A stretch of 64,000 bases of DNA from Botryllus schlosseri (Eukaryota): the NCBI GenBank assembly GCA_051294905.1, contig CM119371.1, positions 6,450,001 through 6,514,000 on the forward strand, written 5' to 3'. Below the pieces are notes generated by a model. It searched no databases, was not told the origin of the DNA, and worked only from the letters and a program-made list of their open reading frames with translations. The position numbers were made by a program, and so were the translations under genes. Each line of letters starts with the position of its first letter. Within the stretch, counting starts at the first letter, position 1. This document shows positions 20,119 to 61,856 of the stretch, one piece after another.

Positions 20119-20983
20119 CTCTGGCACATTTTAACAAGCGAAAGCTTGCTTTGTTCCGACTCCAGTGAGTTTAAAGCATTTGGCAACTACGCCTTTGCCG
20201 AGAAATGGACCTCTCGTGTATGGTTCCCAGTAGAGCAGGGATCCCCAACCTTCTTTTGGCTGTGGCCAATTTTCGGGTTTGAAATTGTTATGTGGCTCAC
20301 CTCTTATCCCAGAGTCATATTCCTGTTCAATGAGTGGTAATCGCCACCAATTTCTGTAAAATTTGCGCATTTTCTCTTAATAATCGTATCTAAATGTGGG
20401 CCTGTAGGGACAAGAAATCGCGCCAAGCGCGACGCAAATTTCCAGTTAAATAGATATCTTCCAACAAACAACCGACGATGTAATTTTGGGCCCCTTGGAG
20501 ATCACCCTCATTCGGGGGTTTAGGGTGCGACAGTTACGGTAATCTTGTGTACCTCAGCTGTTCCACTCACGTAGCGAAACCCAACAATCCAATGTCTAAT
20601 CTCTGCATCCACTCTGTGATTGGTGTTTTAGTTCCACTATGGTGGGAAATAATATAACCATTCTGGGATACTACAGAGATGCGGAAAAAGAACTTTCATT
20701 ATACTAGCTGTACAATTTGATAGTAAGTATTGTACCTATTGAAGTTGCAGTGTCAGAACATTAAATCCAATGATACAATCAATTCATGTACAATTGTACA
20801 TTATGTACAATGACTTCAAGGCCGGAGATTTTCAGACCACCTCCAAAGATTAAACTTTCACTATAAATCTACAATTCTTCAAATAGCCCTGTGGCCCACC
20901 TCCATTTACTCCTGTGGCCCATCCTTTGAGAATCCCTGCAGAAGAGTCATCTCTTTCGTGGCAAGGTATACTTTTTCAGACAT
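20119..20983 (-). pseudogene. PLK1: PLK1-like pseudogene exon 1 (unit A), split by a MITE
   Basis: PYTRGPFLGKGVVAKCFKLTGVGTKQAFAC*NVPE followed by a GT donor, compared with PLK1 [35 protein letters not shown]. A stop replaces the catalytic Lys. Possible ATG at 20983. Confidence 0.85.
20236..20938. mobile_element. hAT-type MITE inside PLK1 exon 1
   Basis: Ends CAGGGATCCCCAACC and TTTGAGAATCCCTG. TSD CAGTAGAG / CAGAAGAG. A related copy in the opposite orientation lies at about 31377-33746. Confidence 0.8.
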
Positions 20984-22010
20984 AATCGTGAAATCAAACG
21001 CTTGTCAACAAATGTACATCAATACTCACAAAATGTAGAACAATAGCTGTCTCTTTCATATTGTCCAGTGTTAATGCAATAGGTTGCATAAAATGTACAT
21101 GAAAAATATGTGGGCTCATACAGTATCATAGTCAGAGAGATGTAGTAATTGGTTCACCCTTCAGGGCAATCATTTGCCACCGCTAGCAGCGAAACAACGC
21201 TGAGGTATCTGCATCATGCATGACTCGAATCACTCAGGTAGGTACTGGATCATGCCTAGCTACAGTTGTCGACTTGAAATACATATAATTCAGCAAGTAT
21301 ATAAATTTTCAACTCGTTCAGATTCGATAAGTCACCAAGTATGCCTTTCTACATCAGCACATTGGTGATTGAACAATGAACATGTTCTAGGCAAAAATGA
21401 GTTTTTCATTGAAAGGACACCGGTACTGGAGGTCATTTCGAATTCTTCCAACCTTTTTTCCCCTTGATCGTGATTTTGCGTGACTTTCAAACTCAGCATG
21501 CTAATCCATATGGATATGATGCTTGTTTCAGAAAGTATCACATTTAAGATTTTTGATACCAACACGCAGAAGCATATGACGCTTGCAGTTAGTCTTCTTA
21601 GTACATGCTTCACCACATACCGTAATTTGACATGTATATTGCCCAAAATTTAACCTATTTTCTGTCCAAAAATCTGGGGATGCACTTCACGCATTGGTAG
21701 AAGTCTTGAAAAATCTATCTCGGAATGAAACTTGAAATCACACTTTTTTACATGTTTTTTGTCAATAACCCATCACATTCAGCCACCGTACCCAGTAATT
21801 TGTGATATAAGTGGTGCGTGTTGCCAATTATCGAAGAGAGAGGTGATGCATGCGCGCGCGCGCGCTAGCAATCATCGCTAATTTATAGCGTCAACGTCAG
21901 GCTTGAACAATCGCATCTCCAACAGGACATCTGCGCAAGATATAATCGCTAGCAGTAACAGTCGCATCTTCAACATGCCTGGTGCGCATGATATAGGCCT
22001 AATCGTTGGA

Positions 22011-23690
22011 CTATATTGTGGTGCCAGCATGCTCAGCCATATGATGCTTGAGGTGGTCCTTCCGAGTAAATGCTTTTCCACATATATCCCAATCACATGA
22101 ATGATTTTTGATTCCAGCATGCTTATTCATATGCAAATTGAGTGTACGCTTTTCAGTCACGGCTTCACCACATATAACACATGTATGATTTTTGATACCC
22201 GCATGCATATCCATATGAAGCTTGAGGGTACTCTTCTGAGTGAATGCTTTCCCACAGATATCACATTTATGATTTTTGATTCCAGCATGCATATACAAAT
22301 GAAGCTTGAGGTGAGCCTTCCTAGTGAATGCTTTACCACACACATCACATTCACGATTTTTTATTTGAGCATGCACACCCATATGACACTTGAGGGTCCA
22401 CTTCTCAGTGAAGGCTTTACCGCATATAGCACAAACATGATTTTTGATTCCAGCATGCATATCCATATGACGCTCGAGGGCACCCTTCCAAGTGAATGCT
22501 TTACAACATATAGCACATGTATGATTTTTGATTCCAGCATGCTTATCCATATGCAAATTGAGGGTCCACTTCTCAGTGAAGGTTTTACCACATATAGCAC
22601 AAACATGATTTTTGACTCCGGCATGCTTATCCATATGGCACTTGAGGGTACGCTTCTCAGTGAAGGCTTTACCACATATAGCACATGTATGATTTTAATG
22701 TCAGCATGCATATCCATATGACGCTTGAGGTGACCCTACCAAGTAAATACTTTACCATATACCTACATTCATGATTTTTTTATTCCAGCATGCACAGCCA
22801 TATGATGTCTGATGGAACCATTTGCATTGAATGCTTTACCACATATAGCACCTTCATGATTTTTGATGCCAGCATGCATATCCATATGAATCTTGAGGTA
22901 ACTCTTTCGAGTGAATGCTTTACCACATATAGCACATGTATGATTTTTAATGCCAGCATGCATATCCAGATGACGCTTGAGGGCAAGCTTCTCAGTGAAG
23001 GCTTTACCACATATAGCACATGTATGATTTTTAATGCCAGCATGCATATCCATATGACGCTTGAGATGACCCTTCCAAGTGAATGCTTTACCACATACAT
23101 CGCATTCATGATCTTTTATTCCAGCATGCACATCCATATGATGTCTGAGGGCACCCTTTTCAGTGAATGCTTTACCACATATAGCACATTCATGATTTTT
23201 GATGCCAGCATGCATAGCCATATGAAGCTTGAAGGTACCCTTCTCAGTGAATTCTTTATCACATATAGCACATGTATGATTTTTAATGCCAGCATGCGTA
23301 TCCATATGAAACTTGAGGTGACTACTTCGAGTGAATGCTTTACCACATATAGCACATGTATGATTTTTGATGCCAGCATGCATATCCATATGAAGCTTGA
23401 GGACACCCTGTCGGGTGAATGCTTTACCACATATAGCACATTCATGATTTTTACTGCCAGCATGCATATCCACATGACGCTTGAGGTGACTCTTTCGAGT
23501 GAATGCTTTACCACATATAGTACATGTATGATTTTTGATACCAACATGCATATCCACATGACGCTTGAGGGCAGCCTTCCGAGTGAATGCTTTACCACAT
23601 ACATCACATTCAACGTTGTTGACGCCAGCATGCATATCCATAAGATGCTTGAGGTAACTGTTCCCGGTAAATGCTTTCCAGTTTCCAATA
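22011..23690 (-). pseudogene. Tandem C2H2 zinc-finger array A (about 19 repeats), broken by frameshifts and a stop near 22690-22790
   Basis: ORFs 22769-23641 and 22011-22634 consist of 28-aa CxxCGKAFT.K..LK.HMDMH-AGIKNH units with an 84-bp period. The intervening unit has indels and a TAG. Further decayed fingers lie at about 21490-21650. The 5' ORF (9 intact fingers) could still be expressed. Confidence 0.85.
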
Positions 23691-24251
23691 TATTTCGAAT
23701 CGGCGTTTTTTCAAGTCGTGATCAATAGTTAATACTAGATCCACAGCAGGCTTTTCTTTATGACACTAAAAAAAGACCTACATATTTTCAGCATATAAAC
23801 TCAGTACAATTATAGTATGGCCACATCTGCAATGCATGAAAGTGTAGAACTATTTTAAACAAAGATCATTATAAGATTGTAGACAGAGCAATCACGATAC
23901 CCGGATTTTAATGTAGTCTTATTGTATCATTTAGTCGGACATCATCAATAGCACTATTGGATTGGTATAACAAGTTTCGATCATTTTAGTAACAAATAAT
24001 TCATAACACGAGAAATAAAACACAGCGCTGAGTGACAATAGCGCACTTTGATGCATATCTGCAATTGGATTATTAGTTGAATTTTTCTAGAACCATAAAA
24101 AAGTTATATATATACCTCTGACCATAAACATTGAGCAGCTTCAATCAATATGCCTTGAAGTAGTTTGCTCGGTAATAAAATTCACATTAACAATGCTACT
24201 TTTACTTTTTATATTGTTTGAAAATGGAATGGTATATTCGTATTGAAATGA

Positions 24252-26700: not shown

Positions 26701-28190
26701 CTTGGTATCAGAGGGTGTCTGATTATTGATTACAGTAATACTGAGTTGAACAATTTTGCAGATAAGCAACTCCAAGCCGAATCTGTTGTATGTTATAACG
26801 AGTCTCTGCTTGGGTGATGAAGCACCTTCTTTTGTAAACCTCCAACTGGTAACAAAAATTGAAGCTTATTGGATTGAGGGAATGAAACCAATACCAATAT
26901 TTGTTGGACACATCTGAATCAGTGGTTCTCAAGCTCTTCGAATTCCCGGACAGGTAGAATTTGACAACAAATTTAGCAGATCGGTGAATATTCCAAGTTT
27001 GATACTTCATTTAATGCTGCCTTATTGATATTAGACACGATAAACGTACCGCTGGCAAAATCGAATGATTGAGTGATTCGATTGCGCATCGAGTATTAGG
27101 CTTCTGTAGTTGAGTGTCAGTTATTATGGGGCCATGCCAGTACGGATAATGGGAAAAGTATGTACCTAATAATAAAACAGGGCCATTTCTAATAAGCACG
27201 AAAATGACAAATGCCTGTACAGCAAGCTTGACTCATTTCGCACGATGAAGTTCTCCTGTAGAATTTTCAGGAAAACCAGAATTGAGATTAGAATTACAAC
27301 GAGCACAGAAATATCTCTCTAATCAGATTAGAAATAGATCAACAGCATTTCACTTCAATTAGTCTAATTGGAGAACAAGAATTAAATATTTGTGCGAGCT
27401 GTTAGTAATAAACTTGAGAGACATTGCCGTTGTAGTAAGGAAATGAGTGTGATTCAAACTGCGATGGAGACTGATCTCTTGACACATTTAGTGTCTCGTG
27501 ATCATTCACGAGCAGTACCTGAAATTAACATGAAATCACAGCACCGCCCATTGTAGGCTTGCCGATAACACCGTGTCAATATCACACTCCGATATCTTAC
27601 ATATCGGCATCTCACTATGAGAGACAAGAAGATGTCAGCTATTTTCGTGATGCCCGAACATAGTAGTAGGGAGTCAGAGAACTATAATTTACGACTGCTA
27701 GACTGGGGATATTGATAGACCTCTGATAGCTTACAAGTGTGTAGCTGCAGTCTTTCTAGTTTACTTCATGATCAATCAAAGTAATGACCGCGAACCTGTT
27801 CTTTTTTTGAAAATGTGCCCAACGCTAGAAGAATATTGAGGTTATCGGTGAAGGTACTAGGTATCGGTTTTATCAGCGCCAGCTCAGAAACTTGATATCG
27901 GTCAGGCTCTATTTATAATAGGCATGTAAGAATGGCAACTTGCAAGTTCTTGTCAATATTTATGATTTCACATGAGTATTTCCAAAAAGGCAATGGTAAG
28001 AGCAACAAATATAATCAGTCACATAAAGTCCTTATGTCTACAAACTTTGCTCACCTTTGGTACAATTTTACAAGCGAAAGTTTGTCTGCCTTTCAACAAA
28101 AATGGACCCCTCGTGTGTAGTTCCCCAGTACAGTCATCCAACAGGAGTTCGAAGATCTTTCTAGTAGTGACGTCTATTCTTTCAGCATTA
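26701..28190 (-). pseudogene. PLK1: PLK1-like pseudogene exons 1-3 (unit B)
   Basis: Exon at about 28190-28055 reads HTRGPFLLKGRQTFACKIVPK then a GT donor, with a deletion in the Gly-loop region. Exon at 27518 to about 27440 matches the plus-strand exon at 56655. Exon at about 26850-26701 reads LEVYKRRCFITQAETRYNIQQIRLGVAYLQN. Confidence 0.85.
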
Positions 28191-29525
28191 TCATGATATC
28201 AAATCGGCAAAGTGAAATATCGCATATTACCACATGTGCACAAGACTTGCACAAGCTACTGGATTTCAAAATGCACAACTAAACTAGAACGAACGACATT
28301 TAAAAATCCGCATCTAACGAAAACACAACGAAATATAATCAATTCCTAAGCAACTCATCAACTATGTATAACCGGAATTTCAACACGAACATCAGTATCA
28401 AATTACTGAAGAATCAGATAGACAGAACTAACATAATACTGGATAAACTAAGCAATTATCAATGGCCGCAAGACCATCACATGAAAGAACACTGATCACG
28501 TCGATATTCAAAAAATATACGACAGTCAACAAATGTAGGCTACATCAATACTCAACAAATGTAAAACTATAGCTGTCTCTTTCAGATTGGCCGAGTTAAT
28601 GCAATAGGTCGGATAAATATCATAAAATGTGCACGAAAATATGGGGCTCATATAGTATGATGATAGTCAGACAGATGTAGTAATACAGTCACTCCAGGAC
28701 AATCACCTAGCACAGCTGGCATCGTAAAAATGATTAGGTTGCTACCTACTGCACAGCACATACATTATTCATATTACCTCAGGTACTAGATCATGTCCCT
28801 CTCCCGTTGTCTTCTTGAAATATACATAATTCAGCAACTCAATAAATTTACAATGACAGTCATCTATTTAAGATTCGATAAGTCACCAAGAATGCTTTCC
28901 TACATTAACACATTGGTGATTGATCATTTTTACATGTTCTAGCAAAAGAGAGTTTTTGATTAGAAGGATACTGTAGGTCATTTCGAATTCTTCCGAACTT
29001 TTTTTCACTTCATCGATACCTTGCGTGATGTTTTCAAATGATGATATTATTAATTACCTGAACTAAACATGTCAGTGACATGACACTAGCATCATATGTT
29101 CAGAGTAAATACTTCCATACACATTTTGCATTCGGATGTGATCATTCCAGTTTGCATATCGGTATGAATCCTGATGTTGCGAGTCAATCTACACATTTTG
29201 TACAAACACCACATTTTCAATCAACGTCACCATATATATATATGACACTTTACTATTCTTTCAAGGGCCGTTCTTTTCCATAAACACCTCACGTTTGAAC
29301 TGATCATGTCAATCCATATATTGCTTGATGGTAGCCGTTTCAAGAAGTTTTACATTTCCTATTTTGATACCGGGATGCAGAACCATATGACGCTTGTAGT
29401 TAGTTGGTGTTCTTAGTAAATGCTTGCCCGCTTATATCACAAATATATTATTTGATGCCAGCATGTATGATAGAATGAAGCCTGATATGTTTCTTCTGAA
29501 AATATGCTTTTCCACATATATCACA

Positions 29526-30947
29526 CTATTGATTTTTGTTGCCAGCATGCATATCCACATGACGCTTGAGGCTCCTCTTGTCAGGAATTGATTTCTCACA
29601 TATTTCATGAACATGATTTTTGATATCAGCATGTATATCAGAATGAAAGTTGAGATGACTCTTCTGTGTAAATGCTTTTCCGCATATATGACATTTATGA
29701 TTTCTGATGCGAGCATGCATGTGGGAATGAAGCCTGAGATTACTCCTCTGTGTAAATGCCTTCCCACATATATCACATTTATGATTTTTGATACCAGCAT
29801 GCATATTCATATGATCCTTGAGGTCGCTCTTCACTGTAAATGCTTTTCCACATATATCACATTGATGATTGTTGATGCCAGCATGCATATAAATATGACT
29901 CCTTAGGCTTGTTCTCGCAATAAAATCTTTCCCACATATATCACATTCATGATTTTTAATGCCAGCATGCATATTAGCATGAAGCTTGAGATAGCTCTTC
30001 AGTGTAAATGCTTTTCCACATATATCACATTCATGATTTTTGATGTCAGCATGCATCTCCACATGACGCTTGAGGCTCCTCTTTCCAGTAAATGCTTTCC
30101 CGCATATATCACAAACATGATTTCTGATGCCAGCATGTATATTAGAATGAAGCTTGAGCTGACGCGTTTGTGAAAATGCTTTTCCACATACTTCACATTC
30201 ATGAATTTTTATTCCAGCATGCACATCCATATGACGATTGAGGCTACAATTTTCAGTAAATGCTTTCCCACATATGTCACACACATGATTTTTGACTCCT
30301 GCATGCACATCCATATGACGCGCAAGGCCACTTTTTAAGGTAAATGTTTTCCCACATAACTCACAAACATGATTTTCGATGCCGGCATGTATATGCATGT
30401 GACTCTTCAGTCGGGCTTTCACAGTAAACGCTTTACCGCATACATCACATTTGTGATTTTTGAGACCAGCATGTATATTATAATGACACTTGAGATTACT
30501 CTTTTGCATAAATGCTTTTCCGCATATATCGCACTCATGATTTTTGACACCAGTATGTATATTTGTATGCTTCTGGAGGTCCCCCTTCCGAATAAATGCT
30601 TTTCCACATACTTCACATTTGTGATGTTTGAGACCAGCATGCATATTATAATGACACTTCAGATTGCTCTTTAGTTTAAATGACTTTCCACATATATCAC
30701 ACTTATGACTCTTGACACCAGTATGTATCTTGGAATGCATCTGGAGGTCACCCTTCCGAATAAATGCTTTTGCACATACGTCACATTTGTGATGTTCAAG
30801 ACCAGCATGTATACTATAATGACCCTTCAGATGACCCTTTTGTATAAATGCTTTTCCGCATATATCACATTCATGATTTTTGATGCCAGCATGCATATCC
30901 ATATGAACCTTGACGTGAACTTTCTGACTAGATGCTCTAGCACACAC
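29526..30947 (-). CDS. Tandem C2H2 zinc-finger protein B (15-16 fingers; 5' end undefined)
   Basis: Uninterrupted 473-codon frame of CDICGKAF..K..L..H...H-AGIKNH repeats. The first in-frame ATG is about 30902 and an upstream in-frame TGA suggests a spliced exon. Decayed fingers continue past the stop to about 29050. Confidence 0.85.
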   Translation of the reverse strand: MCARASSQKVHVKVHMDMHAGIKNHECDICGKAFIQKGHLKGHYSIHAGLEHHKCDVCAKAFIRKGDLQMHSKIHTGVKSHKCDICGKSFKLKSNLKCHYNMHAGLKHHKCEVCGKAFIRKGDLQKHTNIHTGVKNHECDICGKAFMQKSNLKCHYNIHAGLKNHKCDVCGKAFTVKARLKSHMHIHAGIENHVCELCGKTFTLKSGLARHMDVHAGVKNHVCDICGKAFTENCSLNRHMDVHAGIKIHECEVCGKAFSQTRQLKLHSNIHAGIRNHVCDICGKAFTGKRSLKRHVEMHADIKNHECDICGKAFTLKSYLKLHANMHAGIKNHECDICGKDFIARTSLRSHIYMHAGINNHQCDICGKAFTVKSDLKDHMNMHAGIKNHKCDICGKAFTQRSNLRLHSHMHARIRNHKCHICGKAFTQKSHLNFHSDIHADIKNHVHEICEKSIPDKRSLKRHVDMHAGNKNQ

Positions 30948-33746: not shown

Positions 33747-33754
33747 AGCTAGTG

Positions 33755-48586: not shown

Positions 48587-48710
48587 ATTGTTATTGAGAC
48601 TCTTGCACATATCCATTTATTACTGCCACAACAAATTTCTGTATATGTTGTTTTTCTCATTTGATTTTTTTCAGTTTCAAAATGTTTCTCCTAGCTTCAT
48701 ATTTTAATTA

Positions 48711-50795: not shown

Positions 50796-50811
50796 GTTTT
50801 TGTCGACGTCG

Positions 50812-53800
50812 TTCTTGAGTAGTGCAGAAGAAGGGTAAAAGTATTTCCTCATTATAAACGTAATGTACCTCTAACGGCGCCAGTCGAAAATGCATTAGAT
50901 CTGTCATGTTCATTACGAGCAGACTTGGATAACCAGATAATTGTTTTTCTATAATGTATTGGGCTAAATATGGCAAAGTACTTGTAATGTAATTCCAATC
51001 TAATTAATCAACTAATTCTTTATATATAGTGTGAAACGAGTCAGGATTGGTGAACTATTCTCATGCTTATGATAATCAAATCCAATTTGACATGAACTGA
51101 ACTTGATGATTTCTTTTCCCAACTGAGTAATTAAATTCTAATCTAATTTGGATGGGTGTTCAATATATTTCTAATCTACTTTGAATAATGTGATAATTTT
51201 CTGGTGACACAACTGTGATCACTAGGGCTGGGCACAATGATTTGATGACTCAAATCTGAATCGAGTATCAATTCAAATAATTTGAGTCGAGTAGTAAGAA
51301 ATGACTGTTTCGAGTGCTGACAATATACGCTCCATGTCTCAAAATGGAAAAATTATATTAACCATGAGCTGAATTGAACAATTGAGAATTATATTTCTTA
51401 CTGTGAAAAGTTGTGAACCTTGATTGGTCGTATCGCAGTATACGAAATATGTAATACAAAGCTATGCACGTTGCTGAAAATGACATGTCTGTGAAGTTGT
51501 GAGCAACCTAAAGCATTGTCCCATAGTGTGATGAAATAGTAATGGTAAAAAAAGTGCAAAATAATCTTTATAATATGACTAGAATAGGTATCATATTCTT
51601 TGTGGTGTTGCTATGAAGTTAACATGAGTGACTCAAACTCGTTACTCGATTCAGAAGCAAATCACTCAGGTACTTTATTTTAGCCAGCCCGATTTATTTC
51701 ACGTTCAGTATCAAAAAGCAAGGATTAAATAAAGTTTGGAAGGTTCACCGGTCTGCAAAAACTGTCTTCAAATTTGACTGTCCCTCTAACTCAGAAAGGT
51801 TGCGAACCACTGATTTAGATGATGTGTCTAACAAATATTATTGTTTTTCACATTCCAGCGATCCAATTACCTTTTATTTTTGTTGTCAGTCGCTGATGAA
51901 AGTTCACAAAAAAAGATGCGTCATCACAGAACCAGAGACTCGTTATCACACGCAACAGATTCTGCTTGGTGTTGTTTATCGTCACGATTGTAAAATCATT
52001 CACAGAGATATCAAGGTAACATTGTATGCAGTCGTGCTTTCGTAAATAATCTTCGAAAATTATGTCAGTACCAGAGCCGACCGATTATTGGTTTGTCAAT
52101 TTGGGGATAAAACTATGCACCTTATATACCACTAACGTAAATCATTGATTGCGCTACAAGCTCTCTAAAGTGATCTTGTACAAACTACTGTATTTTCAAC
52201 ATACGCAACAAGAATGAGAACTGCTCACTTTTCATAATTCTCCACTAGAACCAACGACCATTGAAAATCTGCTACTAGCTTACTGTAATACACAACTTGC
52301 TAATGATTTTTAGGTTGCTAATTTACAAATAAGCTGAGCTGTATCGGGGATAGAATTGACATCTCAAATTTGTGGGGTTTCGAGTTTGAAACAGGGGTGC
52401 TCTCGAACCGTAATACTCTTGGTTTGAGTCAATACACAATTTGACTCGAGTCGTGTCACTAGAAAATAAGGACTGGTTTCGAGTCATGAATCTAGCCATT
52501 ACAGCCCTGCCACTGTGAATATAATGCCGGTACTACATCTCATTATAAAGATAATTTAGTCATTTTTCGACCATATCTATTTCACTGTACTCTGTGACAA
52601 TGCTGTGGCTTGATCACAATGTAGGCAATACCGCCTATCGAGGTTTACAGCCTTGCACAGTGGAAATGCCATTGAAACTATAATTCTCATTGATAAATTA
52701 CCGTAACTGTTACTGACAACAAGTGTATATTTTCAGTAGATATACGAATATAGCGACACGATACCAACACTAACCTACCATGATTTTTTTTGTCCACAGC
52801 ATGTTGTCTATTGACCCATCTCAACGACCTTCTGCGCAATCGAGTTGCGTCCAGCTACATACCTCTACATACCTCAAAAACTACAGACCATCTGCTTGCC
52901 TATCACAAATGTCAACGCGAGACAATCTTCACCGGTGAGTTTTTACAATTCCACAGCAAGTTTACGATTAGATCTTAACCAAAATTGGATTTTTGAGCCA
53001 ATACCGATAAAATCGATAGCTATAGCACCTTCACCGATAAGCGAAGTCGGACAAATAAAAGATTTTCTTCTTTTCCGAATAAGATAAGCATTAGAATAAG
53101 AGCAGCCTTTTTTTATGCCAAGATATGGCTAACTGAGTTTATGCGAACTCGGAAAGTAGAAATAAAGTGAATGTTGATCAGCTTTTTACTCGAAAAATCG
53201 GCTCTCACTGCTTGGCGCAGAATCATTGCATTTGATATTGAAGTCGAATTGAAGTTGTGGATAGTTGTGGCCAGCCCTACTCATTGATGTTATCTTGTGG
53301 TCCCCGAAAGTAGGCTACTTTGTAAATTTTTGGTATTTTCTCTCTCTCTCAAAGTGACTTATGCATGAGACTGTCGTGTCATAATTCCTGGATCGGTTTT
53401 CAATTAACCTCCATTTGTTTATCTCTAAAGCATCAGCCAATTGGTTCAATCAGGTAATTGTAGTTGTGTAAGTTTATTTAGAAGAGCGAAATGTTGGTAA
53501 TCAGATTCTCATTTAATTTATGACATGTTGCTATGCTCTCATATCAAGCCTAATCTAATTTCTGGGTTATCCTTAAAATGCTACCAGAGAACTGTATCAT
53601 ATCATGCAAAATGAACCAAACTTGCAGTACCGACATTTTCCATTCTCACATATACGAGAATCAACTTTAACCTGATAAGAAGTTATATTGATTCAATTTC
53701 CAAATTTTCATGATCTCACTCATTCCAATTCTAATCTAATTAGGAAAAGCTGCATAGTTACGAATCTAAATGTGCTCTGGTTTGGAAAAAAGCTTTGTAG

Positions 53801-54913
53801 CTATCACAAAATCGTCAAATTCTAATCCATCTTTGAAATGAATGTGTAGCTATATTTTTAATTCTAACCGAAGCAAAAAAAGCTGAAAATTCTCTAGTTA
53901 TGCAACTCTGGCGCTAGCAATCTTGTAAGAAACCAAGCGGCCCAGGCTTGCAAGAACTCGTTTGATAGGAATTACCTTCATTGTGAATTTCTTATATTTT
54001 ACTATACTGTTTATTGTATATTTTAAAGTACCTCGTATTTCATTTTGCAGGCGCGCTACTACAGAGACACAAACCTGTTGGTGACAAGCCAGAGCGACTA
54101 TCATATGCAGCAACCAATCACCAGACTTTCAAGCTCTGCTCAAGAAATTGATTGATGCCAATCCCAGGCAGAAGTCTGCTGTAAATATAAGTTGGTATTT
54201 AGGCCTATATTATAACCACTGACAAGGTTTGATTTTAAGTTGAATTGCCATATGAAATGTAAGCTACTTCTACAAACCAGTGATTTTAATGTGCTGTAAA
54301 ATGGCGTTATATTGTATGTGGTCGTATAAAAAGCAGATACATAAACTTTCCACGTCATCCATACTGTTACGACGTGATAATGAGAGAATCTCGACTAGAA
54401 ACCTAACACCTGATTCAGAAATGACAAGATGCTACATATAAGTGATTATTAACAATGGACGTCGCTTGGAGCTAACCCCTGATAACCTCACGAACAGTCT
54501 TTACTGTGTGGCATGAAGATGGCTGATGTATAATTGCAGAATTGTCTGAAATTTTACCAAATGGTAAAATGATTAGGAATTCCATTCTCTTATCAAGTTG
54601 ACAGATATTAGAGAATAGTCCATTGAATATTCCCGTTTACAAATGTCAGTAAAAGTCAAAACTAATGTTGAAATTCAAAGTTATTAGGTATCCTCGGTCC
54701 ATATCGGTTTCCTCTAATATCATAGATGCAAGTAACTGCTCTCGCTCTTAAATGACATTGTCATTAAGATTGTTAGCACTGGACCAATGTGTAATTTATG
54801 TATATCAAAAATGCTTTCACTTCAACAGATGAGGCGGAAGAGCCACAGCAGCCGTACCACTACCAGTATTTTGATTAGCAAATGGGTGGATTATACGGAT
54901 AAAGTCGTGTTTG
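50812..54913 (+). pseudogene. PLK1: PLK1-like unprocessed pseudogene, partial copy C
   Basis: Exons: about 50812-50835 LE*CRRR then GT; 51890-52015 SLMKVHKKRCVITEPETRYHTQQILLGVVYRHDCKIIHRDIK then GT; about 52800-52935 MLSIDPSQRPS..YIPQKLQTICL; about 54051-54190 DFQALLKKLIDANP; 54829-54913 EAEEP/ISKWVDYTDKVVFG (start of polo box 1, frameshifted). Confidence 0.9.
51223..51692. mobile_element. TAGGGCTGGGCA-family MITE in a PLK1 intron
   Basis: TAGGGCTGGGCACAATGATT ... TAGCCAGCCCGA; a reverse-orientation relative of 24492-25006. Confidence 0.75.
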
Positions 54914-57900
54914 GTATGGCCACCCATGTTTCAGACATCAATTTATTAAAATTTCTATCAAATCAATGCATCACAAGATAGGAGGGGACCGAAACGACTT
55001 GGTGAAGTCTTTTAATCAGACACTCACCTTGCCTCAGCATGGCACACCTCCATGAAAGTGCGACGTCTCCACGGGATCTACCACAGTGTGTGCAAAACAA
55101 AACTTCCTTGGAGCTTGAATATAATGGCATTCATACGACATGTCCACCAACACCAATTCACCATTGTCTCCAATAACAAATTACCCTAATGCAATTCACA
55201 ACGTTTATAATGATTTATATTACCAAATTCACTATAGACCTAGTTTACCGAAGGATGAATTCATCGAGGGCCAAGTTCAATGGTCAGTGTGGTTCCAATC
55301 ATGATACTTGAATCTCTTCCTATCCAAATAAGGAAACAGTTCCCTATTTGAAATTAAAATTTTGATTCATATGATAGTTTTAAATCCATAAATCCTGGTT
55401 ACCAAACAATCTTACAAAATGTGAGTTAATGTCTGTGATTTTATTACTATTTGTGATTTTCACCAGAATGTTGGCGAGCGACCCATCTCAACAATCCTCT
55501 GTAAAGAAAGTGCGGGCCAGTGAATATTTCAAGGGCTTCATTCCACAGAAGCTACCCACAAACTGCTTGAACAGCTTGCTTGCCCATACTTTCAGAAAGC
55601 CAACTACAGCAAAGGAGTCCTCTGCAGAGTTTGATCAATAAGATTTTTTCGCAGGTCTTTGCAAAATCGAGTTCCTAAGTGATTCGATTCTGAATCGAGT
55701 CTCATTCATGATAACATGAGCCCAACCTATATCGTATTTTTAAGATAATAGCGATAAGTACCACTTTCACTGATATCTCCGACGTATTCATCTGTTATTG
55801 AAATAATATGGCAACTAGCTTAAGGCACATTTTCAAACCTTCAGATCATTTATTCAAACAACTGGCGGCTGTTACTATGATAAGACATGAATTAAACAAC
55901 AAAGGACGCTTGTAAGCAGAGGCAGTCAGTAACAATACTACTTATACTTACTCAGAGTACTCAAGTAGGTTTTGCCATATACTTGCATTATTTACTCAAG
56001 TCACTCAAATGATTTTAGACGACTTGTGTACTTCCTATGTAACAGTTCAGTGTTCATGCAAAACTAGGCGTATAATATTTACTTGATTACCTTCCTTGTA
56101 AATCGCAACTTCTGCTTATAATAGAGTAGAAATTACGACATTACTTCTATACTCGAGTTCGAACGACGACTATTTTAACCACTTGTAAGTTATAAGAATA
56201 TTCCACGTTAGTGCAGATTTCAGTCCTCTGACTGCACGCTACCATGTTGTCACGTCACGAAAATTGTCGATATTTTTACCTATAATGGGCAATACCTTTC
56301 AAACTCTACGATAGACTCGACATTTTTGGCCAATCCATATAATCAGTCGTGCTCTCATTACATGGTACCTTATTAAAATAACAGGTGAACATTCGTGAAC
56401 TGGTAATATCTCCTGATTGTACATTTCAGCTTCTTCCTAGTTCAAAACTCATTCCGCATATAAAACAGTATCTGAATACAATGCAAATTTCATCTGACTT
56501 GTGCAAACTGCTGTACATCAGAATGCTAGAAACTAGAAATAGAACTAGAACTACTCAGTTTTCAAAACTAACTAAAACTAGCCGTACTCAAAAACAGTTG
56601 GTTATTTGACCGTCTACTATCGAGCTCGGTAATTTGGACAAAACTGTATTTCAGGCACTGCTCGTGAATGAGCATGAGAAAGACAAAATGTGTCAAGAGA
56701 TTTAATCTTCATCGCAGTTTGAATCACAAGCATGTTGCTGGATTTCATGGATTTTTTCAAGACAATGATTATGTCTACATCGCTCTCGAGTTGTACAAAA
56801 GAAAGGTAAAAGTATTTCCATGATATAACTGTAATGTCTCCAAACGGTGGAGGTCACAATTCATCAGCCCTGTAACGTTCATTAGGCCTACTAGCAGACT
56901 TGAACAACTAGACAATTATTGTTGTCTAATAATACTAATTAGAACCAAATACTGGTAATCTACTTGTAATCTAATTTGTTGAATGTTTCTAAGCTCTTAA
57001 TTCTATTGTGATTAATTTTCTGGTTTCCTGAAAATGCTGCAGGAGAATTTTATAGTACGTAACTAGCAAAGCTTGGTGTACATACATTTTGTATTCCGTT
57101 ACTTTATGACAGGGAATATAGAACTGATGTCAAGTTACCTTGATTTTTGTTGTGTTGCTTTCATGAATTAAGCAATTCTAATCTAATTCACAACTTTCAA
57201 CTATGCATTCACAGTAACGTGTATTGACTCGGAAAACTTACCGCGTTCCTCTTATCAAGAGCGACCGGCATGATAAAGGACATAAAACAGGTTAGATTTG
57301 AAACCGAATCGCTGTGTTCAGGTTCTCTACCACCAATCCGTTATTCTTTTCTAATTTGAGGAAAATGTGTAGCTATAATTGTAATTGTTATCTAGTTTGG
57401 AATGTCCGAAAATTTTCTAGTTACATTACTCTGATCACTTGTCAAGGGCTGGGCACTCTGATTTCAGGACTCGAACTGAATCGTGTATGTACTATAATGA
57501 TTCGAGTTGAGTAGTGAGAGATTATTTTTTCGTGCAACACTGAAAGTATACGCTAATTGTCGAAACAGGTTGAGAAGTGCAGCTTTGAATGTGCCTGACA
57601 AATACTGTAGTTGTTTGCATTCTAGCAATCCCATGAGTGTTGATTTTTGTCGCTGATGGAACTCAACAAATGAAGGCGCGCCATCACAGAACCAGATACT
57701 CGTTCTTATATAGACCAGATTGTGCTTTGAGTTGTTTACCTTCATGATTGTAAGATCATTCACAGAGATATCAAGGTAACATGGCTTGCAGCGTTGCAGG
57801 AACCAGATATGTACAAACTACTCTATTTTCAAAACGCGCGATAAGAGCTATAATTACCGTAACGAACATTAAGAATCTGCAACTAACAAACATACATACA

Positions 57901-59094
57901 ACTAACTAATAACGTATAATGCAAATTACTGTATTGTAAATGAGCTGAGAAATATTGGAGATAGAATCGGCATTTCGACTTCTGAATGCACTGATTTTGA
58001 CCCCAGAAATTCACCCCCAGCCTCCCTCACTTATAGGAGTTATGTCTCTGATCTAGCAATGGCTGCAAGAACATCAAACAACAGAACACCGGTATCGCGA
58101 TTCACGCCAAACGTTGGCACATGTTTTGTAGCTGTTTGGCAACTAAATTTTTTGAAACTCTGCAACTAGAATTAGAACTGGAACTAGTCAAGTTAACAAT
58201 AGTTAGTTGACCTTCAACTAACTACATTATTAGTTTAGCTATATTGCCTACATGTTGAACTGAATGAGAAATTTGTCTTGACAACTCGAAAACCTATTTC
58301 TGAAAACCAACAAGATTGTAGATTTGAGTCCAGCCACAAACGTCGACTTTGACAGCCAAACTAAGAATGCATTTTGAGCCACACCCAAATAAATATCCCC
58401 GGAAATTTATGACAAGAATGGACATGGGTTGGGAGTGGACACCTAGTTGGGTTTCGTCATTATTTCTCAACATTGAACTTGGTATTTAAAAGGAGTCATA
58501 AAAAAATGACTCGAGTCAGACTCGAGTCGAGTCATCACAACCCTGATTTAAATAACTATACATGATTCAATCATATAATGTAGTTCCGCGCCTCCAACAG
58601 TCTTGTCAAATCCCTTCATTGTGACTTGTGAAAATTACTTTTTGGGGCCTTATTCAAGAGTTTTGTACTGTAACTTGATCGTTGATTTATTGCCGATGAT
58701 GATTTGTACCACATCAGGAGGTCGCCAACTAGCTATACAAATTCGAGTGATTGACTGGTTTTATTCTGAGAGTAAAGTACTACTTTTTATGTGGTCATAT
58801 GGAGGAAGAAAACCGACCAATCCACATTTCAACCTAATGCACGCTTGCAAAGGATTGATTTTTTTCCAACTCAACACAAATGTATTGCTATTGTGGATTA
58901 ATTGTATCAGTTAATTATTTTACTCGACAGGTGCTGCTAATACAGATGATACACGGAAACCTGTAGGTGACAAGCCAATCAACAGACTTTCCTATGGCAG
59001 AAATGGCAGCTCGGCTCAAGAAATCGATCGATACCAATCCAACCTTGAAATCCCCTATAAATATCTGTGAGTATTCATTTTGTGACAACTGATT

Positions 59095-59521
59095 GTATCA
59101 CTCATTATGACGTCATAAAAGAATGTAATACGTCATGTACCGTTTATGCCCCCACAAGGAATATAATGCCTTTTATCCATTTCATAAATGATAATTTGGT
59201 ATTTTTCCGACCATACCGATTTCATTCCACTTGGTGACAACTTTGTGGTATAATCAAGACTTCGGAAATGTGCTACGTCCAGTAACCTTCGTAGCTTCGT
59301 ACCATACGTTTCGTATGCTACGATACCGCCAATCAACGTTTCAAGGCTTCAGCAGTGAAAATTAGTATCGAAACTATAATTCTCGTTGATAAATTAACTT
59401 GCAGTGGCGAGAAGCTTATAATTTCAGTACTCGAAAAAGTCGTATTTTACTACTCGACTCGAATCATTAAAATTAATACTCGACTCAGATTCGAGTACTC
59501 GAATCATTGTGCCCAGCCCTA
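59095..59521. mobile_element. TAGGGCTGGGCA-family MITE, left end missing
   Basis: Colinear with 24570-25006 and ends CATTGTGCCCAGCCCTA. Confidence 0.85.
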
Positions 59522-60336
59522 GTTATGGCAATCATTGGCAATCTGTCAGTTACATCTTTAGTCGCTGAACCATGTTATTAAGGCGACTTACAGGTACCGA
59601 GTACCGTAGTGGTACGCTCCAACCATGTAACAACAATGGGCCGTTCGGCGTTCTGACATTTCAATCACTAGGACACATTCAATAATATATTTATAGTTTC
59701 TGCTCCTATATTTGAAGATATTTGGCCATGAAATTAATTGCCTACTGATCAGAAGTATACTCGAATCCAGGATTGGAATTACAATGCTCCACCTAAAAAT
59801 GTTTTGATATCAGATCAGTCTCTATTATCAATCTGAAATATTCAAAATATTCATAGTAGCTGCAAAATTATAACCCGATAGCTTTTATGATGGCATCATA
59901 CATTTGTCCGCCTATATGATGTCTATATGTTATGATTAATATATATCAAGTACAACAACAATTCTATTCAAATAGTTATAAACGTGATGTTTTTTTTTCT
60001 TACCAGGCCTAAATTTATACAAGAGTGAATCACATTTTGACGATGTGTGTTTACTGATAGTCTGGTTGATCGGCTTACTTTCAATAGTACAATTCATTCC
60101 CGCCGAATAATGCCTACTTGGAAAGACATAGAATACCCCTATAAATGCTGCGGCCCGCGGCGTCGTCAAAACGGGAAAACTGGCCCGCAAGCACATTTGA
60201 GTTTGAGACCTCTGATCTAAAAAATAGTACATTGAACGCTCTCGTATTCGACATTTCGTGCTGGTGACGTCATATTTTGTGTAACGATTGTTGATATACG
60301 CTGTTCTTCCGAATTCTCTACTAGTTGCTGACGATT

Positions 60337-60370
60337 ACCCCTGACGAGCGTCAGCCGAAAATATTCGGGT
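60337..60370 (+). ncRNA. Minimal type I hammerhead ribozyme in an approximately 150-bp repeat (60235-60390)
   Basis: ACCC-CUGACGA-GCGUCAGCC-GAAA-AUAU-UC-GGGU, one mismatch from the copy at 24252-24285. Confidence 0.75.
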
Positions 60371-61856
60371 TCATTTCAATATGAATATACTATTCAATTG
60401 TATATTGAAGTTCTGTACCTCAAAGAAGCTGTATAAAATATAATCAAAACTATAATTCCTGTAAATAAATCAAATCTTAATGGCAAGGGACGTATCATTT
60501 CAATTCTCCGAAGTCATCTCTCACTCGAATCATACCACTTGATACTCAATTTATATTGGAGTACTCGAATCATTGGTCACCTCTCTACTCATCATACTGA
60601 CTACTTTGAGCATCTACTGATTCCACTTAAATAGATTAGAAATAAACCAGCTTACCTCTACTTGAGTATCAACACTGACTATTGTGCACAATTTTTCGGG
60701 CGCTGTAATGCATTTTCTATCATGCAGGACCACACCAAAATGATTTTGTATCCTCTGATGGGAGCCTCGACTTGCATCTACCGAGAACACAGCTTCATAA
60801 CGTACAAGCAGAGCGTGATTGAGACATACGGATGTAGCTGAGAGCTAGGCCATCGATTTCGGTACTCCAGGACCATGCTGGAAAAACTCACCTCCAACCA
60901 TTCGTCTGCCGAGCAAAACTAACGTTTGCCAGAAGACGATTTATTGACATTGTGTATGATTTCCGATAGAAATGATTTGGGTGGTGTAGTACGTACTGGA
61001 TCAAAAACCAGGACTTTGTCAGCAGCAGTTTGAAAAGTGCGGCGTAGCGTTTATATTTGACTTGACATCTTTTTCCTACTTCATCTTCTCTCCCTCGATG
61101 GAGTTTCTTTTGCCTTTCCTTTGTAACGCGAGTTGATAATACCTATCAATAAATATCATCCGACGGATTGGTATCGTGTGCTCAATTTATGGCAGATACG
61201 TTGAGTGACAAGGCTTGTGTAAACCACCATTCTAGTTGACGGTTAGCTAACTACTTTTTTTAGTAGTTCTAGAGTACTGCTGTGGATTTTCTAAGACAAA
61301 GTAGTTTGGGGTTGAGTTCGCATAAGTTTTAGTGAAATTGTCTGAAAACAGGGCTACGAAGGGAAATTATTCATTGGAATGCCGTAGTTAGTATTATCAC
61401 CGAACTGGTAATATAATAGGACATTACCCCGCGGGCCACGCTAAACCCTCTTGCGGGCCATATTCTGAGCCACCCCTGATATAGACAGGACTGGTAAGCT
61501 GCTTTAAAACCAACCATATCGGTCAATCGCATGCTTTAGGATTAAAAGTCATAACACGTGTATAGGTCAGCTACGAGGGGTCAAAAGCGATATGGCGGAA
61601 CTATCAAGTCCTCAAGTATTGGCTAAATAAATTCTTTCTGCGCGAGGAAATAAGTTAATCGGTGTCGGCGAGTTCGTATTTAGGAAAATGAATGTTTCGA
61701 ATGATTCTTCGTACTGGATATGCACACATTATGAAACAAAAAATGTCGCTGTTCATTGAAAGTCATTGATGGGTATGACCATCAAGTCGTTCTGAAGCAA
61801 TCTCGAGAACACAATCACTGTGTTACTTTTGGCATAGTATGATAGTAGATGCCAAC

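What the first reader, a model, noticed from the sequence alone, without database searches (positions are those of the whole stretch)
20119..60922. Repeated zinc-finger-array plus PLK1 cassette in tandem and mirror-image arrangement
Seen: three ZNF arrays are each followed on the same strand by intron-bearing PLK1 exons (A 23.7 to 20.1 kb, -; B 30.9 to 26.7 kb, -; C 46.2 to 60.9 kb, +). The spacers between ZNF and PLK1 exon 1 in A and B are homologous (21000-21460 vs 28525-29000). Every PLK1 copy is disabled, while two ZNF frames stay open and have diverged from each other. Inference: the duplicated unit is ZNF+PLK1, with a mitotic kinase gene carried along in a lineage-specific ZNF expansion. 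A former functional link (read-through or ZNF-kinase transcript, or a selfish amplifying cassette) is possible but not shown.
Basis: partly seen in the sequence, partly recalled or inferred. Interest (0 to 1): 0.8.

Follow-up and report, generated by a model that had tools for sequence, protein, structure and literature searches.

The report
Zinc-finger genes dragging dead PLK1 copies
In this sea-squirt-like genome a zinc-finger gene and a broken piece of the cell-division kinase gene PLK1 have been copied together dozens of times within one 2.5-million-base stretch that also holds the working PLK1 genes; this looks like ordinary local gene duplication with a dead passenger, on an unusually large scale.

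Summary
The window has three C2H2 zinc-finger (ZNF) arrays, each followed on its own strand by intron-bearing, disabled PLK1 exons. A and B are colinear tandem copies; C faces the other way and carries two partial PLK1 copies.

The window is the right edge of a much larger structure. Of 88 genome hits to one PLK1 exon, 85 lie on contig C1 between 4.04 and 6.51 Mb. At least 37 ZNF arrays lie among them. ZNF followed by PLK1 on the same strand is strongly non-random: 13 of 37 arrays within 5 kb, against 0 of 37 for each other arrangement.

Two intact-looking PLK1 genes sit inside the cluster as a mirror pair. They differ only at 46 synonymous sites.

There are two cassette designs: ZNF, ZNF 3' flank, PLK1 exon 1; and ZNF, exon-6 fragment, exon 2. 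The misplaced exon 6 is shared by 32 of 82 pseudogene copies, so an already-dead copy was amplified.

Best reading: local segmental duplication of ZNF genes with a PLK1 pseudogene as passenger. No ZNF-PLK1 transcript could be tested. Interest is moderate.

The parts
22011..23710 (-). ZNF array A: about 16-17 C2H2 fingers with HAGIKNH-type linkers, broken into two ORFs (22772-23710 and 22014-22694) in different frames.
   Evidence: 84-bp tandem period. Homology extends over 21480-23797.
21004..21491 (-). Spacer of cassette A, derived from the 3' flank of the ZNF gene.
   Evidence: 73% identical to 28525-29038. Recovered as a hit of the B spacer (C1:6471004-6471491).
20116..20220 (-). PLK1 pseudogene A: exon 1 only (P0001 residues 24-58), with a stop directly after it.
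   Evidence: DNA is 78% identical to exon 1 of the intact gene.
29526..30968 (-). ZNF array B: a 480-aa open frame with 16 fingers. There is no ATG near its start, so an upstream exon is likely but was not determined.
   Evidence: dN/dS against A is 0.33-0.38. The chance of staying open under neutral change is 0.04-2.6%.
28200..29400 (-). Spacer of cassette B. Most of it is the ZNF 3' flank, shared with 12 other cassettes and with ZNF genes at C1:26.14 Mb that have no PLK1. A short dispersed repeat lies at about 28240-28397, just upstream of PLK1 exon 1.
26753..28174 (-). PLK1 pseudogene B: exons 1 (28031-28174), 2 (27371-27487) and 3 (26753-26845), degraded, with intron-sized gaps between them.
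46201..47741 (+). ZNF array C: a 478-aa open frame with 15 fingers, HTGVKNY-type linkers and a unique N-terminal part of about 120 aa. It belongs to a subfamily whose closest relatives (69-86% aa identity) all lie in C1:4.08-6.41 Mb.
   Evidence: dN/dS is 0.47-0.77. Neutral simulation.
47984..48590 (+). Young interspersed repeat of about 600 bp inserted in the C spacer. Not part of the cassette proper.
   Evidence: 94-96% identical copies on many contigs, 8134 first-look candidates.
48591..51886 (+). Rest of the C spacer, the exon-2 remnant (50772-50882) and PLK1 intron 2. It is shared at 87-95% identity with other C-type cassettes at C1:4.91, 4.94, 5.04, 5.05, 5.08 and 5.18 Mb.
51887..54936 (+). 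PLK1 pseudogene C1: exons 3, 6, 7 and 8. Exons 4 and 5 are missing.
   Evidence: Weak Pfam Pkinase match for ORF 51632-52042.
55456..61180 (+). PLK1 pseudogene C2: an exon-6 fragment placed upstream of exon 2, then exons 3, 4, 7 and 11 plus 3' flank. Stops in exons 3, 4 and 11. It carries the cluster-wide 'exon 6 before exon 2' rearrangement.

Best explanation
The window is the right-hand edge of a birth-and-death gene cluster of about 2.5 Mb on contig C1 (4.03-6.51 Mb), in a tunicate-like genome. C2H2 zinc-finger genes have been multiplied there by repeated local segmental duplication, both tandem and inverted.

Early in this history (inferred), a ZNF gene with about 1 kb of its own 3' flank came to lie directly upstream of a partial copy of the neighbouring PLK1 gene. 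From then on each duplication of the ZNF gene carried the PLK1 piece with it. The PLK1 pieces are passengers. They lack complete exon sets, carry stops, and many share a rearrangement that no working gene could have.

The ZNF genes are the likely selected cargo. Many keep long open frames, and their fingers vary mainly in the recognition-helix region.

Shown here: the anatomy, the clustering, the oriented linkage, the shared spacers, the shared rearrangement, and the intact parents inside the cluster.

Inferred: the order of events, and that selection acts on the ZNF genes and not on the PLK1 parts.
For: 1. Clustering. 85 of 88 hits to the window's exon-2 peptide lie on C1 between 4,039,937 and 6,506,820; the other 3 are on small contigs C93, C94 and C183. 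Exon 6 gives 77 of 84 on C1, exon 1 gives 32 of 35, and exon 9 gives 28 of 36.

2. Oriented linkage. I merged the rows within C1:4.0-6.52 Mb into 37 ZNF arrays. Of these, 13 have an exon-2 hit within 5 kb downstream on the same strand. The count is 0 of 37 for each of downstream-opposite, upstream-same and upstream-opposite. Within 15 kb the four counts are 23, 2, 5 and 4. In 2000 circular shifts the mean was 5.8 and the maximum 13.

3. Non-coding continuity. A and B are colinear through ZNF, spacer and exon 1 at 71-73%. The B spacer recurs at 69-74% over 430-820 bp at 12 other cluster sites. For example, ZNF 5050173-5051510 is followed by spacer 5052429-5053248, exon 1 at 5053277 and exon 2 at 5055075. 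The 5' part of the spacer also follows ZNF genes at C1:26.14 Mb, where no PLK1 lies, so it is ZNF flank. The C spacer and PLK1 intron 2 recur at 87-95% identity.

4. A dead founder. 32 of 82 pseudogene exon-2 hits have an exon-6 fragment 0.5-1.4 kb upstream on the same strand (median 763 bp). Controls gave 2 downstream and 0 on the opposite strand. In the intact gene exon 6 lies 5.6 kb downstream of exon 2.

5. Not retrocopies and not a transposon. Exon order and intron-sized gaps are kept, and the copies stay within one segment.

6. Parents inside the cluster. C1:6285475-6298495 (+) and C1:5790872-5807146 (-) each have 11 coding exons with no internal stop. They differ at 46 of 1764 compared coding bases, all synonymous. 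Aligned non-coding segments are 74-94% identical.

7. ZNF frames kept open. B (480 aa), C (478 aa) and neighbours of 567 and 645 aa are open. Random substitution at half the observed divergence leaves C open in 1.1% and B in 0.04% of 5000 trials. Variation among fingers is concentrated in the helix positions, while C, C, F, L, H and H are fixed.

8. Ongoing turnover. Cassette similarities range from about 70% (A/B) to 95% (C-type).
Against: 1. Crude constraint measures do not cleanly separate cargo from passenger. Pooled pN/pS among PLK1 pseudogene fragments is 0.59, and 0.38 against the intact gene. ZNF dN/dS is 0.33-0.77. The PLK1 values are biased downwards because only fragments still recognisable by tblastn were counted, but a past period of constraint on some PLK1 copies is not excluded.

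2. Linkage is not universal. 14 of 37 ZNF arrays have no same-strand exon-2 hit within 15 kb downstream. In the fully read 264 kb, 4 of 6 ZNF arrays have PLK1 exons within about 6 kb downstream, and four PLK1 groups (6305, 6360-6368, 6433-6447 kb and the intact gene) have no ZNF just upstream.

3. The intact PLK1 (+) has no ZNF, or ZNF remnant, in the 15 kb upstream. The founding junction is therefore inferred, not seen.

4. A PLK1 segment with exons 8-10 and their introns is dispersed outside the cluster. Five copies 98-100% identical lie on C8, C12 (two) and C16 (two), and one copy of 90-94% lies on C15. Isolated fragments lie on C13, C5, C17, C147 and C64.

5. Many hit pairs in mirrored positions have identical scores. 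Part of the copy number may come from uncollapsed haplotypes in the assembly.

6. ZNF lists are lower bounds: only 89 of 1102-1203 candidates were scored, and array A itself is missing from them.
Confidence: 0.75

Rival explanations
1. Functional link. The PLK1-derived exons are part of the ZNF transcription units, as read-through 3' UTR or as chimeric ZNF-kinase-fragment transcripts. Or they act as regulatory RNA (antisense or small-RNA source) on the working PLK1 genes embedded in the same cluster. On this view they are retained for a reason.
For: PLK1 exon 1 starts only 1.3-1.8 kb after the ZNF stop on the same strand in A and B, and this geometry recurs across the cluster. The working PLK1 genes lie inside the cluster. 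pN/pS among the fragments is below 1 (0.59). Copies occur on both strands, in 18 alternating strand blocks.
Against: Every window copy has stops or missing exons. The exon content differs from copy to copy. PLK1 exon identity between A and B (71%) is no higher than that of the non-coding spacer (73%). No opposite-strand exon-2 pair lies closer than 16 kb, so no short hairpin is evident. B and C PLK1 parts are only about 71% identical.
Confidence: 0.08
2. Transposon capture. A mobile element picked up a ZNF gene and PLK1 exons and spread them by transposition.
For: A short dispersed repeat sits just upstream of PLK1 exon 1 in B-type cassettes, at query positions 1004-1161, with hits on many contigs. 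A different PLK1 segment (exons 8-10) occurs as 98-100% identical copies on three other chromosomes. On C12 and C16 these are inverted pairs 41 kb and 25 kb apart, which could be the ends of a large element.
Against: The cassettes themselves are confined to one 2.5-Mb segment plus three small unplaced contigs. Similarities range continuously from 70% to 95%, with indels and mosaic exon content, as expected of local segmental duplication. No transposase was found in the cassettes. The dispersed exon 8-10 segment is not the ZNF-linked part.
Confidence: 0.04
3. Assembly artefact. The repeated, mirrored pattern is largely produced by uncollapsed haplotypes or mis-scaffolding in a highly heterozygous genome.
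For: Many pairs of hits in mirrored positions have identical scores, for example 4779381(-)/5055874(+), 4606639(+)/5265956(-) and 4076508(-)/4216446(+). The two intact PLK1 copies differ only synonymously. A 100-N scaffold gap lies 3 kb right of the window.
Against: The window's own cassettes are 64-80% identical to each other and lie within tens of kb on contiguous sequence without N, far beyond allelic divergence. Peptide identities of 40-75% among most copies are paralogous. The two PLK1 loci differ by many indels and have 74-83% identity in their 5' halves. At most this halves the copy number.
Confidence: 0.05
4. Selfish or arms-race amplicon. The ZNF+PLK1 cassette was amplified because a PLK1-derived product once distorted cell division or transmission, and ZNF genes diversified with it. 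This would resemble ampliconic drive-and-suppressor systems.
For: Very high local copy number of a mitotic/meiotic kinase fragment. Young copies at 87-95% identity indicate recent activity. ZNF dN/dS is high, up to 0.77.
Against: No open PLK1-derived frame was found in the window. 32 of 82 copies share a rearrangement incompatible with a kinase product. There is no expression evidence. The simpler hitchhiking model explains all observations.
Confidence: 0.04

Closest known systems
Tandem clusters of poly-C2H2 zinc-finger genes expanded by segmental duplication, such as the vertebrate KRAB-ZNF clusters (comparison recalled from general knowledge, not from a call)
   Same: Dozens of related multi-finger genes lie in one chromosomal block, on both strands. 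Open and broken members are mixed. The finger scaffold is conserved and the helix positions vary. Divergences range widely, as in birth-and-death evolution.
   Different: No KRAB, SCAN, BTB or other effector domain was found in the finger-exon frames; upstream exons are unknown. The linkers are HAGIKNH or HTGVKNY, not the usual TGEKP type. The host looks like a tunicate. Each unit drags a fragment of an essential kinase gene, and the working kinase genes lie inside the cluster.
Duplicated (non-processed) pseudogenes carried as passengers in segmental duplications (recalled concept)
   Same: Intron-bearing partial copies with stops and missing exons lie close to the parent gene and are co-duplicated with neighbouring sequence.
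   Different: The scale is unusual: at least 80 recognisable copies of single exons in 2.5 Mb. Two junction types link the fragments to two ZNF subfamilies.
PLK1 (polo-like kinase 1) of tunicates, e.g. Styela clava PLK1-like (P0001)
   Same: The two intact loci match P0001 exon by exon over residues 1-565 at 52-93% identity. The window fragments match the same exons.
   Different: The window copies are fragments with stops, and none could encode a kinase or a polo-box domain.
Pseudogene-derived or inverted-repeat small-RNA loci, such as hairpin-RNA suppressors of drive genes in Drosophila and pseudogene endo-siRNAs in mouse oocytes (recalled, a lead only)
   Same: Many copies of fragments of one gene lie on both strands, near the parent gene.
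   Different: No close inverted pair was seen: the nearest opposite-strand exon-2 hits are 16 kb apart. Divergence between the window's opposite-strand copies is about 29%. No small-RNA data were examined.

Membership tests
Functional PLK1 gene | Complete set of coding exons giving an uninterrupted kinase domain plus two polo boxes | tested here: not met
   Window copies: A has exon 1 only, B has exons 1-3, and C1 and C2 lack several exons and carry stops. No POLO_box match falls in the window. The two loci C1:6285475-6298495 and C1:5790872-5807146 do meet this at exon level: 11 exons with no internal stops.
C2H2 poly-zinc-finger gene | Tandem C-X2-C-X12-H-X3-H fingers in one open frame | tested here: met
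   B has 16 fingers in 480 aa and C has 15 fingers in 478 aa. Pfam zf-C2H2 E-values are about 1e-78. A is split by a frame change.
C2H2 poly-zinc-finger gene | Evidence of selection on the coding frame | tested here: met
   Under random substitution at half the observed divergence the frames stay open in 1.1% (C) and 0.04% (B) of 5000 trials. dN/dS is 0.33-0.77.
KRAB-, SCAN-, BTB- or ZAD-type ZNF family | N-terminal effector domain | tested here: inconclusive
   None was found in window ORFs of at least 75 aa, 115 of 131 of which were scanned. Upstream exons could not be defined without RNA data.
Processed pseudogene (retrocopy) | Exons joined without introns, with a poly-A tail | tested here: not met
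   Exons are 0.6-2 kb apart and largely in the parental order. Intron-flank homology to the parent is retained.
Transposon-captured gene fragment (Pack-MULE or Helitron type) | Copies dispersed over the genome | tested here: not met
   85 of 88 (exon 2), 77 of 84 (exon 6) and 32 of 35 (exon 1) hits lie in one 2.5-Mb segment.
Transposon-captured gene fragment (Pack-MULE or Helitron type) | Terminal repeats and target-site duplications at unit ends | not tested
   Unit boundaries could not be defined.
Segmental-duplication (birth-and-death) gene cluster with passenger pseudogene | Colinear homology through coding and non-coding parts of the unit | tested here: met
   A against B. B spacer in 12 further cassettes. 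C spacer and intron at 87-95% identity in 6 sites.
Segmental-duplication (birth-and-death) gene cluster with passenger pseudogene | Fixed order and orientation of the two components beyond chance | tested here: met
   13 of 37 against 0 of 37 within 5 kb. 23 of 37 within 15 kb, against a shuffle maximum of 13 in 2000.
Segmental-duplication (birth-and-death) gene cluster with passenger pseudogene | Congruent phylogenies of the two components | tested here: inconclusive
   The exon-3 tree of 13 copies is a star: 8 of 10 inner forks are unsupported. There was too little sequence for paired ZNF/PLK1 trees.
Hairpin or small-RNA locus | Closely spaced, highly similar inverted copies; small RNAs | tested here: not met
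   The nearest opposite-strand exon-2 hits are at least 16 kb apart. Small RNAs were not tested.

The most novel reading that the evidence does not exclude
The 2.5-Mb array is not inert. ZNF-driven read-through across the PLK1-derived exons, which occur in both orientations around the two working PLK1 genes, yields antisense or small RNAs that tune or silence PLK1. Alternatively, the array is the fossil of a drive-like conflict in which a truncated polo kinase and fast-evolving ZNF repressors were co-amplified. Either would make this a chordate example of an ampliconic kinase-pseudogene regulatory or conflict locus.
Probability: 0.07. Interest if true: 0.8.

Novelty: new member of a known kind. 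Interest (0 to 1): 0.4.

Why it matters
If the reading is right, this is a clear and unusually large example of gene hitchhiking. A fragment of an essential mitotic kinase gene was multiplied at least 80-fold only because it became welded to the 3' side of an expanding zinc-finger gene.

It gives a dated series of neutral PLK1 copies, with a shared rearrangement as a marker. That series could be used to reconstruct how a ZNF cluster grows in a non-vertebrate chordate.

It also warns annotators: exon-level searches in this genome will call dozens of false 'PLK1-like' genes. The two PLK1 loci that differ only synonymously need phasing before anyone calls them a gene duplication.

The four literature searches (listings and abstract starts only) returned no paper describing it.

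Tried and rejected
1. RNA evidence. The look-up of sequencing runs listed no holder on record as RNA. I laid one raw RNA-seq run (X23, about 6% of it read) and three contig sets guessed to be RNA (X15, X17, X18) on window 44001-62000. All 1187 laid X23 reads fitted only partly and piled on repeats at 59001-59600 and 60201-60800. Depth over ZNF C was about 0-0.2. The listed joints had non-canonical ends and lay at repeats. This says nothing about expression or about joined ZNF-PLK1 transcripts.

2. Tree congruence. The ML tree of 13 exon-3 copies was unresolved.

3. ZNF homologue search. It gave only generic poly-ZNF proteins at 52% identity or less, with no informative name or domain.

4. PLK1 homologue search. 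The nearest proteins, P0122 and P0123, are 76-97% identical per exon to the intact loci, so they are other species' PLK1 and give no expression evidence here.

5. Rfam scan of the window: 0 matches.

6. Earlier notes of this scan: none for this genome.

7. Literature (search listings and abstract starts only): 1, 0, 4 and 1 papers held all the terms. By title and abstract start, none concerns PLK1 pseudogene arrays or tunicate ZNF clusters.

8. Retrocopy and genome-wide transposon-dispersal readings were rejected (see membership tests).

9. Palindrome reading of the B/C mirror pair was rejected: there is no symmetric homology beyond the ZNFs and scattered repeats.

Full report
**What the window is**

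The window is G000:C1:6450001-6514000, from a 495-Mb, 219-contig eukaryotic assembly. It has about 39% GC and no N. The nearest named protein to its kinase fragments is PLK1-like of the ascidian Styela clava (P0001). The intact PLK1 loci of this genome are 52-93% identical to P0001 exon by exon. The host is therefore a tunicate-like animal, not that species.

**Check of the observation**

Stop-to-stop frames show three C2H2 arrays:
- A at 22011-23710 (-), split into 313-aa and 227-aa frames.
- B at 29526-30968 (-), 480 aa open.
- C at 46201-47637 (+), 478 aa open.

All three are confirmed by Pfam and appear as 84-bp tandem repeats.

tblastn of P0001 against the window finds PLK1 exons downstream of each array on the same strand:
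- A: exon 1 only, 20116-20220.
- B: exons 1-3, 28174 down to 26753.
- C: two partial copies. C1 has an exon-2 remnant and exons 3, 6, 7 and 8 (50772-54936). C2 has exon 6, then exons 2, 3, 4, 7 and 11 (55456-60907).

All copies are disabled by stops, gaps or missing exons. Exons are separated by intron-sized gaps.

Self-comparison shows that A and B are colinear copies of one unit:
- ZNF: 22014-23608 to 29360-30953, 71%.
- Spacer: 21004-21491 to 28525-29038, 73%.
- PLK1 exon 1: 19984-20148 to 27924-28084, 71%.

B and C face away from each other and are different cassette types. Their ZNFs are 47-49% identical in protein. This is not a palindrome.

**The larger structure**

The peptide of the window's exon 2 has 88 matches in the genome. 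Of these, 85 lie on C1 between 4.04 and 6.51 Mb and 3 on small contigs. The other exon searches gave:

| Exon | Matches | On C1 |
|---|---|---|
| Exon 1 | 35 | 32 |
| Exon 2 | 88 | 85 |
| Exon 6 | 84 | 77 |
| Exon 9 (first polo box) | 36 | 28 |

The exon-2 query was the window's pseudogene copy. The others used exons of the intact gene, so the counts are only roughly comparable.

ZNF C's close relatives (69-86% aa identity) are confined to C1:4.08-6.41 Mb. A second, PLK1-free group at 49-72% identity lies at C1:21.9-22.15 Mb. ZNF B's relatives (60% or less, apart from two partial matches of 65-70% at C1:26.14 Mb) are spread along C1, including the cluster.

I read 264 kb around the window. It holds, in order:
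- the intact PLK1 (+) at 6285475-6298495;
- a partial PLK1 duplicate at 6305-6308 kb;
- six ZNF arrays;
- several groups of PLK1 fragments.

There are no PLK1 fragments in the 20 kb to the right of the window. A 100-N gap lies at 6517065-6517164. The window is therefore the right edge of the cluster.

**Is ZNF-then-PLK1 the repeated unit?**

I merged the rows that fall in C1:4.0-6.52 Mb into 37 arrays. This is a lower bound: only 89 of 1102-1203 candidates were scored, and array A is absent from the lists. I used 84 C1 exon-2 hits, dropping one overlapping row.

| Distance | Downstream, same strand | Downstream, opposite | Upstream, same | Upstream, opposite |
|---|---|---|---|---|
| Within 5 kb | 13 of 37 | 0 | 0 | 0 |
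| Within 15 kb | 23 of 37 | 2 | 5 | 4 |

In 2000 circular shifts of the ZNF positions, the same-strand downstream count within 15 kb had a mean of 5.8 and a maximum of 13.

The non-coding spacer confirms continuity. The B spacer (window 28200-29400) recurs at 69-74% over 430-820 bp at 12 other cluster sites, each between a ZNF array and a PLK1 exon 1 where both were listed. Its 5' part also follows ZNF genes at C1:26.14 Mb, which have no PLK1. Most of the spacer is therefore the ZNF gene's own 3' flank. The last 200 bp or so before exon 1 contain a short repeat found on many contigs.

The C spacer and the adjoining PLK1 intron 2 recur at 87-95% identity at C1:4.91, 4.94, 5.04, 5.05, 5.08 and 5.18 Mb. 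Amplification therefore continued until fairly recently. A repeat of about 600 bp at 47984-48590 is a young insertion present genome-wide.

**Two architectures and a dead founder**

B-type cassettes run ZNF, spacer, exon 1, exon 2. C-type cassettes run ZNF, about 1.2 kb, an exon-6 fragment, about 0.7 kb, exon 2. Examples are 4661082, 4662195, 4662905 and 5001375, 5002638, 5003362.

Across the cluster, 32 of 82 pseudogene exon-2 hits have an exon-6 hit 0.5-1.4 kb upstream on the same strand (median 763 bp). Controls gave 2 downstream at that distance and 0 on the opposite strand. In the working gene, exon 6 lies 5.6 kb downstream of exon 2.

A shared derived rearrangement of this kind means these copies descend from one already-broken copy, not from repeated duplication of the working gene. 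The window's C2 copy carries it (55456-55569 before 56640-56805).

**The parents**

Two loci have all 11 coding exons without internal stops: C1:6285475-6298495 (+) and C1:5790872-5807146 (-). They stand head to head, 478 kb apart.

Over 1764 compared coding bases they differ at 46 positions, all synonymous (pS 0.12, pN 0). Aligned non-coding segments are 74-94% identical with many indels. Both are therefore under strong purifying selection.

I cannot tell whether they are two genes or two very divergent haplotypes kept in the assembly. No ZNF or ZNF remnant lies within 15 kb upstream of the (+) copy.

**Selection**

Pooled pN/pS for PLK1 fragments is 0.38 against the intact gene and 0.59 among the fragments. 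These values are biased low, because only still-recognisable pieces were counted.

ZNF dN/dS is 0.33-0.77. These averages do not separate cargo from passenger. The frames do:
- B, C and two neighbours are open over 478-645 codons.
- Random substitution at half the observed divergence keeps C open in 1.1% and B in 0.04% of 5000 trials, before counting indels.
- Variation among fingers is concentrated in the helix region, while the zinc ligands and hydrophobic core are fixed.

In the cluster, roughly half of the C-type ZNF rows with 69% identity or more show stops. That is a birth-and-death pattern.

**Mechanism proposed**

1. Inferred: a rearrangement placed a ZNF gene with its 3' flank just upstream of a partial PLK1 duplicate near the PLK1 locus.
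2. Shown by the pattern: repeated tandem and inverted segmental duplication multiplied the joint unit within 2.5 Mb, producing 18 alternating strand blocks.
3. Inferred from open frames against decayed exons: ZNF copies were retained or lost under selection for new DNA-binding specificities, while the PLK1 parts decayed.
4. A second junction type (ZNF|exon 6-exon 2) arose by further rearrangement and was itself amplified.

**Rivals**

- A functional ZNF-PLK1 transcript or a small-RNA role is not excluded, because no usable RNA evidence was obtained. Nothing requires it, and no close inverted pairs exist.
- Transposon capture is unlikely for the cassettes, which are confined to one segment. A different PLK1 segment (exons 8-10 with introns) does occur as five 98-100% identical copies on C8, C12 and C16, plus one of 90-94% on C15. 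That deserves its own study.
- Assembly artefact cannot explain copies that are 64-80% identical on contiguous sequence. It may inflate the count, since many mirrored hit pairs have identical scores.

**Comparison with what is known, and novelty**

The structure works like the segmental-duplication ZNF clusters known from vertebrates and like passenger duplicated pseudogenes; both comparisons are recalled knowledge. It is not a retrocopy family, and no effector domain was identified.

Four literature searches (listings and abstract starts only) returned no paper on PLK1 pseudogene arrays or tunicate ZNF clusters.

I rate it a new member of a known kind. Its notable features are the scale, the clean evidence of hitchhiking, and the working PLK1 genes embedded in the array. 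Interest is 0.4.

Noticed in passing
G000:C1:6285475-6298495 (+) and C1:5790872-5807146 (-): Two complete-looking PLK1 loci stand head to head, 478 kb apart. They differ at 46 of 1764 coding bases, all synonymous, with introns 74-94% identical and many indels. They are either two selected paralogues or very divergent retained haplotypes.
   Followed up: partly
L003-L007: C8:20709684-20712842, C12:20418600-20421758 and 20459780-20462938, C16:22462891-22466049 and 22487652-22490810; also C15:163568-166293: A PLK1 segment with exons 8-10 and their introns is present as five copies 98-100% identical to each other (79-86% to the PLK1 locus) on three other chromosomes. On C12 and C16 they are inverted pairs 41 kb and 25 kb apart. 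An older copy (90-94%) lies on C15. This could be the ends of a large mobile element or recent inter-chromosomal duplications.
   Followed up: partly
window 47984-48590: A repeat of about 600 bp with 94-96% identical copies on most contigs (8134 first-look candidates): a young, high-copy interspersed element inserted in the C spacer.
   Followed up: no
window about 28240-28397: A short repeat of about 120-160 bp lies directly upstream of PLK1 exon 1 in B-type cassettes. It also occurs at 72-86% identity on many other contigs and may mark the ZNF-flank/PLK1 junction.
   Followed up: no
window 1264-1551 (-): An ORF with a THAP domain (Pfam E 1.9e-7, above cut-off), possibly a remnant of a THAP-type or P-element-like gene. 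The neighbouring 127-aa ORF at 2173-2553 (+) has no family match.
   Followed up: no
window 2543-3177 and 3518-4082: Two stretches that match their own reverse complement (77% over 644 columns, 68% over 587): long imperfect palindromes of unknown nature.
   Followed up: no
window 59001-59600 and 60201-60800: RNA reads and contigs pile up here but fit only partly and run on into unlike sequence. These are members of repeat families expressed from elsewhere, not evidence for transcription of the PLK1 fragments.
   Followed up: no
G000:C1:4.0-5.5 Mb: Many hit pairs in mirrored or shifted positions have identical scores, e.g. 4779381(-)/5055874(+), 4606639(+)/5265956(-), 4662905(+)/5420482(-), 4076508(-)/4216446(+). 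These are recent large inverted duplications or uncollapsed haplotypes, and the pairs have different centres.
   Followed up: no
G000:C1:21.9-22.15 Mb: A second cluster of ZNF-C-type genes (49-72% aa identity) with no PLK1 exon hits. The ZNF subfamily therefore also exists without the PLK1 passenger.
   Followed up: no
G000:C1:6517065-6517164: A 100-N scaffold gap 3 kb beyond the right end of the window, close to where the PLK1 fragments stop. The true right boundary of the cluster may be affected by scaffolding.
   Followed up: no
G000:C13:20219844-20220014: An isolated PLK1 exon-1 copy (67% aa identity, 2 stops) on another chromosome. Further isolated exon-6 and exon-9 hits lie on C5, C17, C147 and C64.
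   Followed up: no
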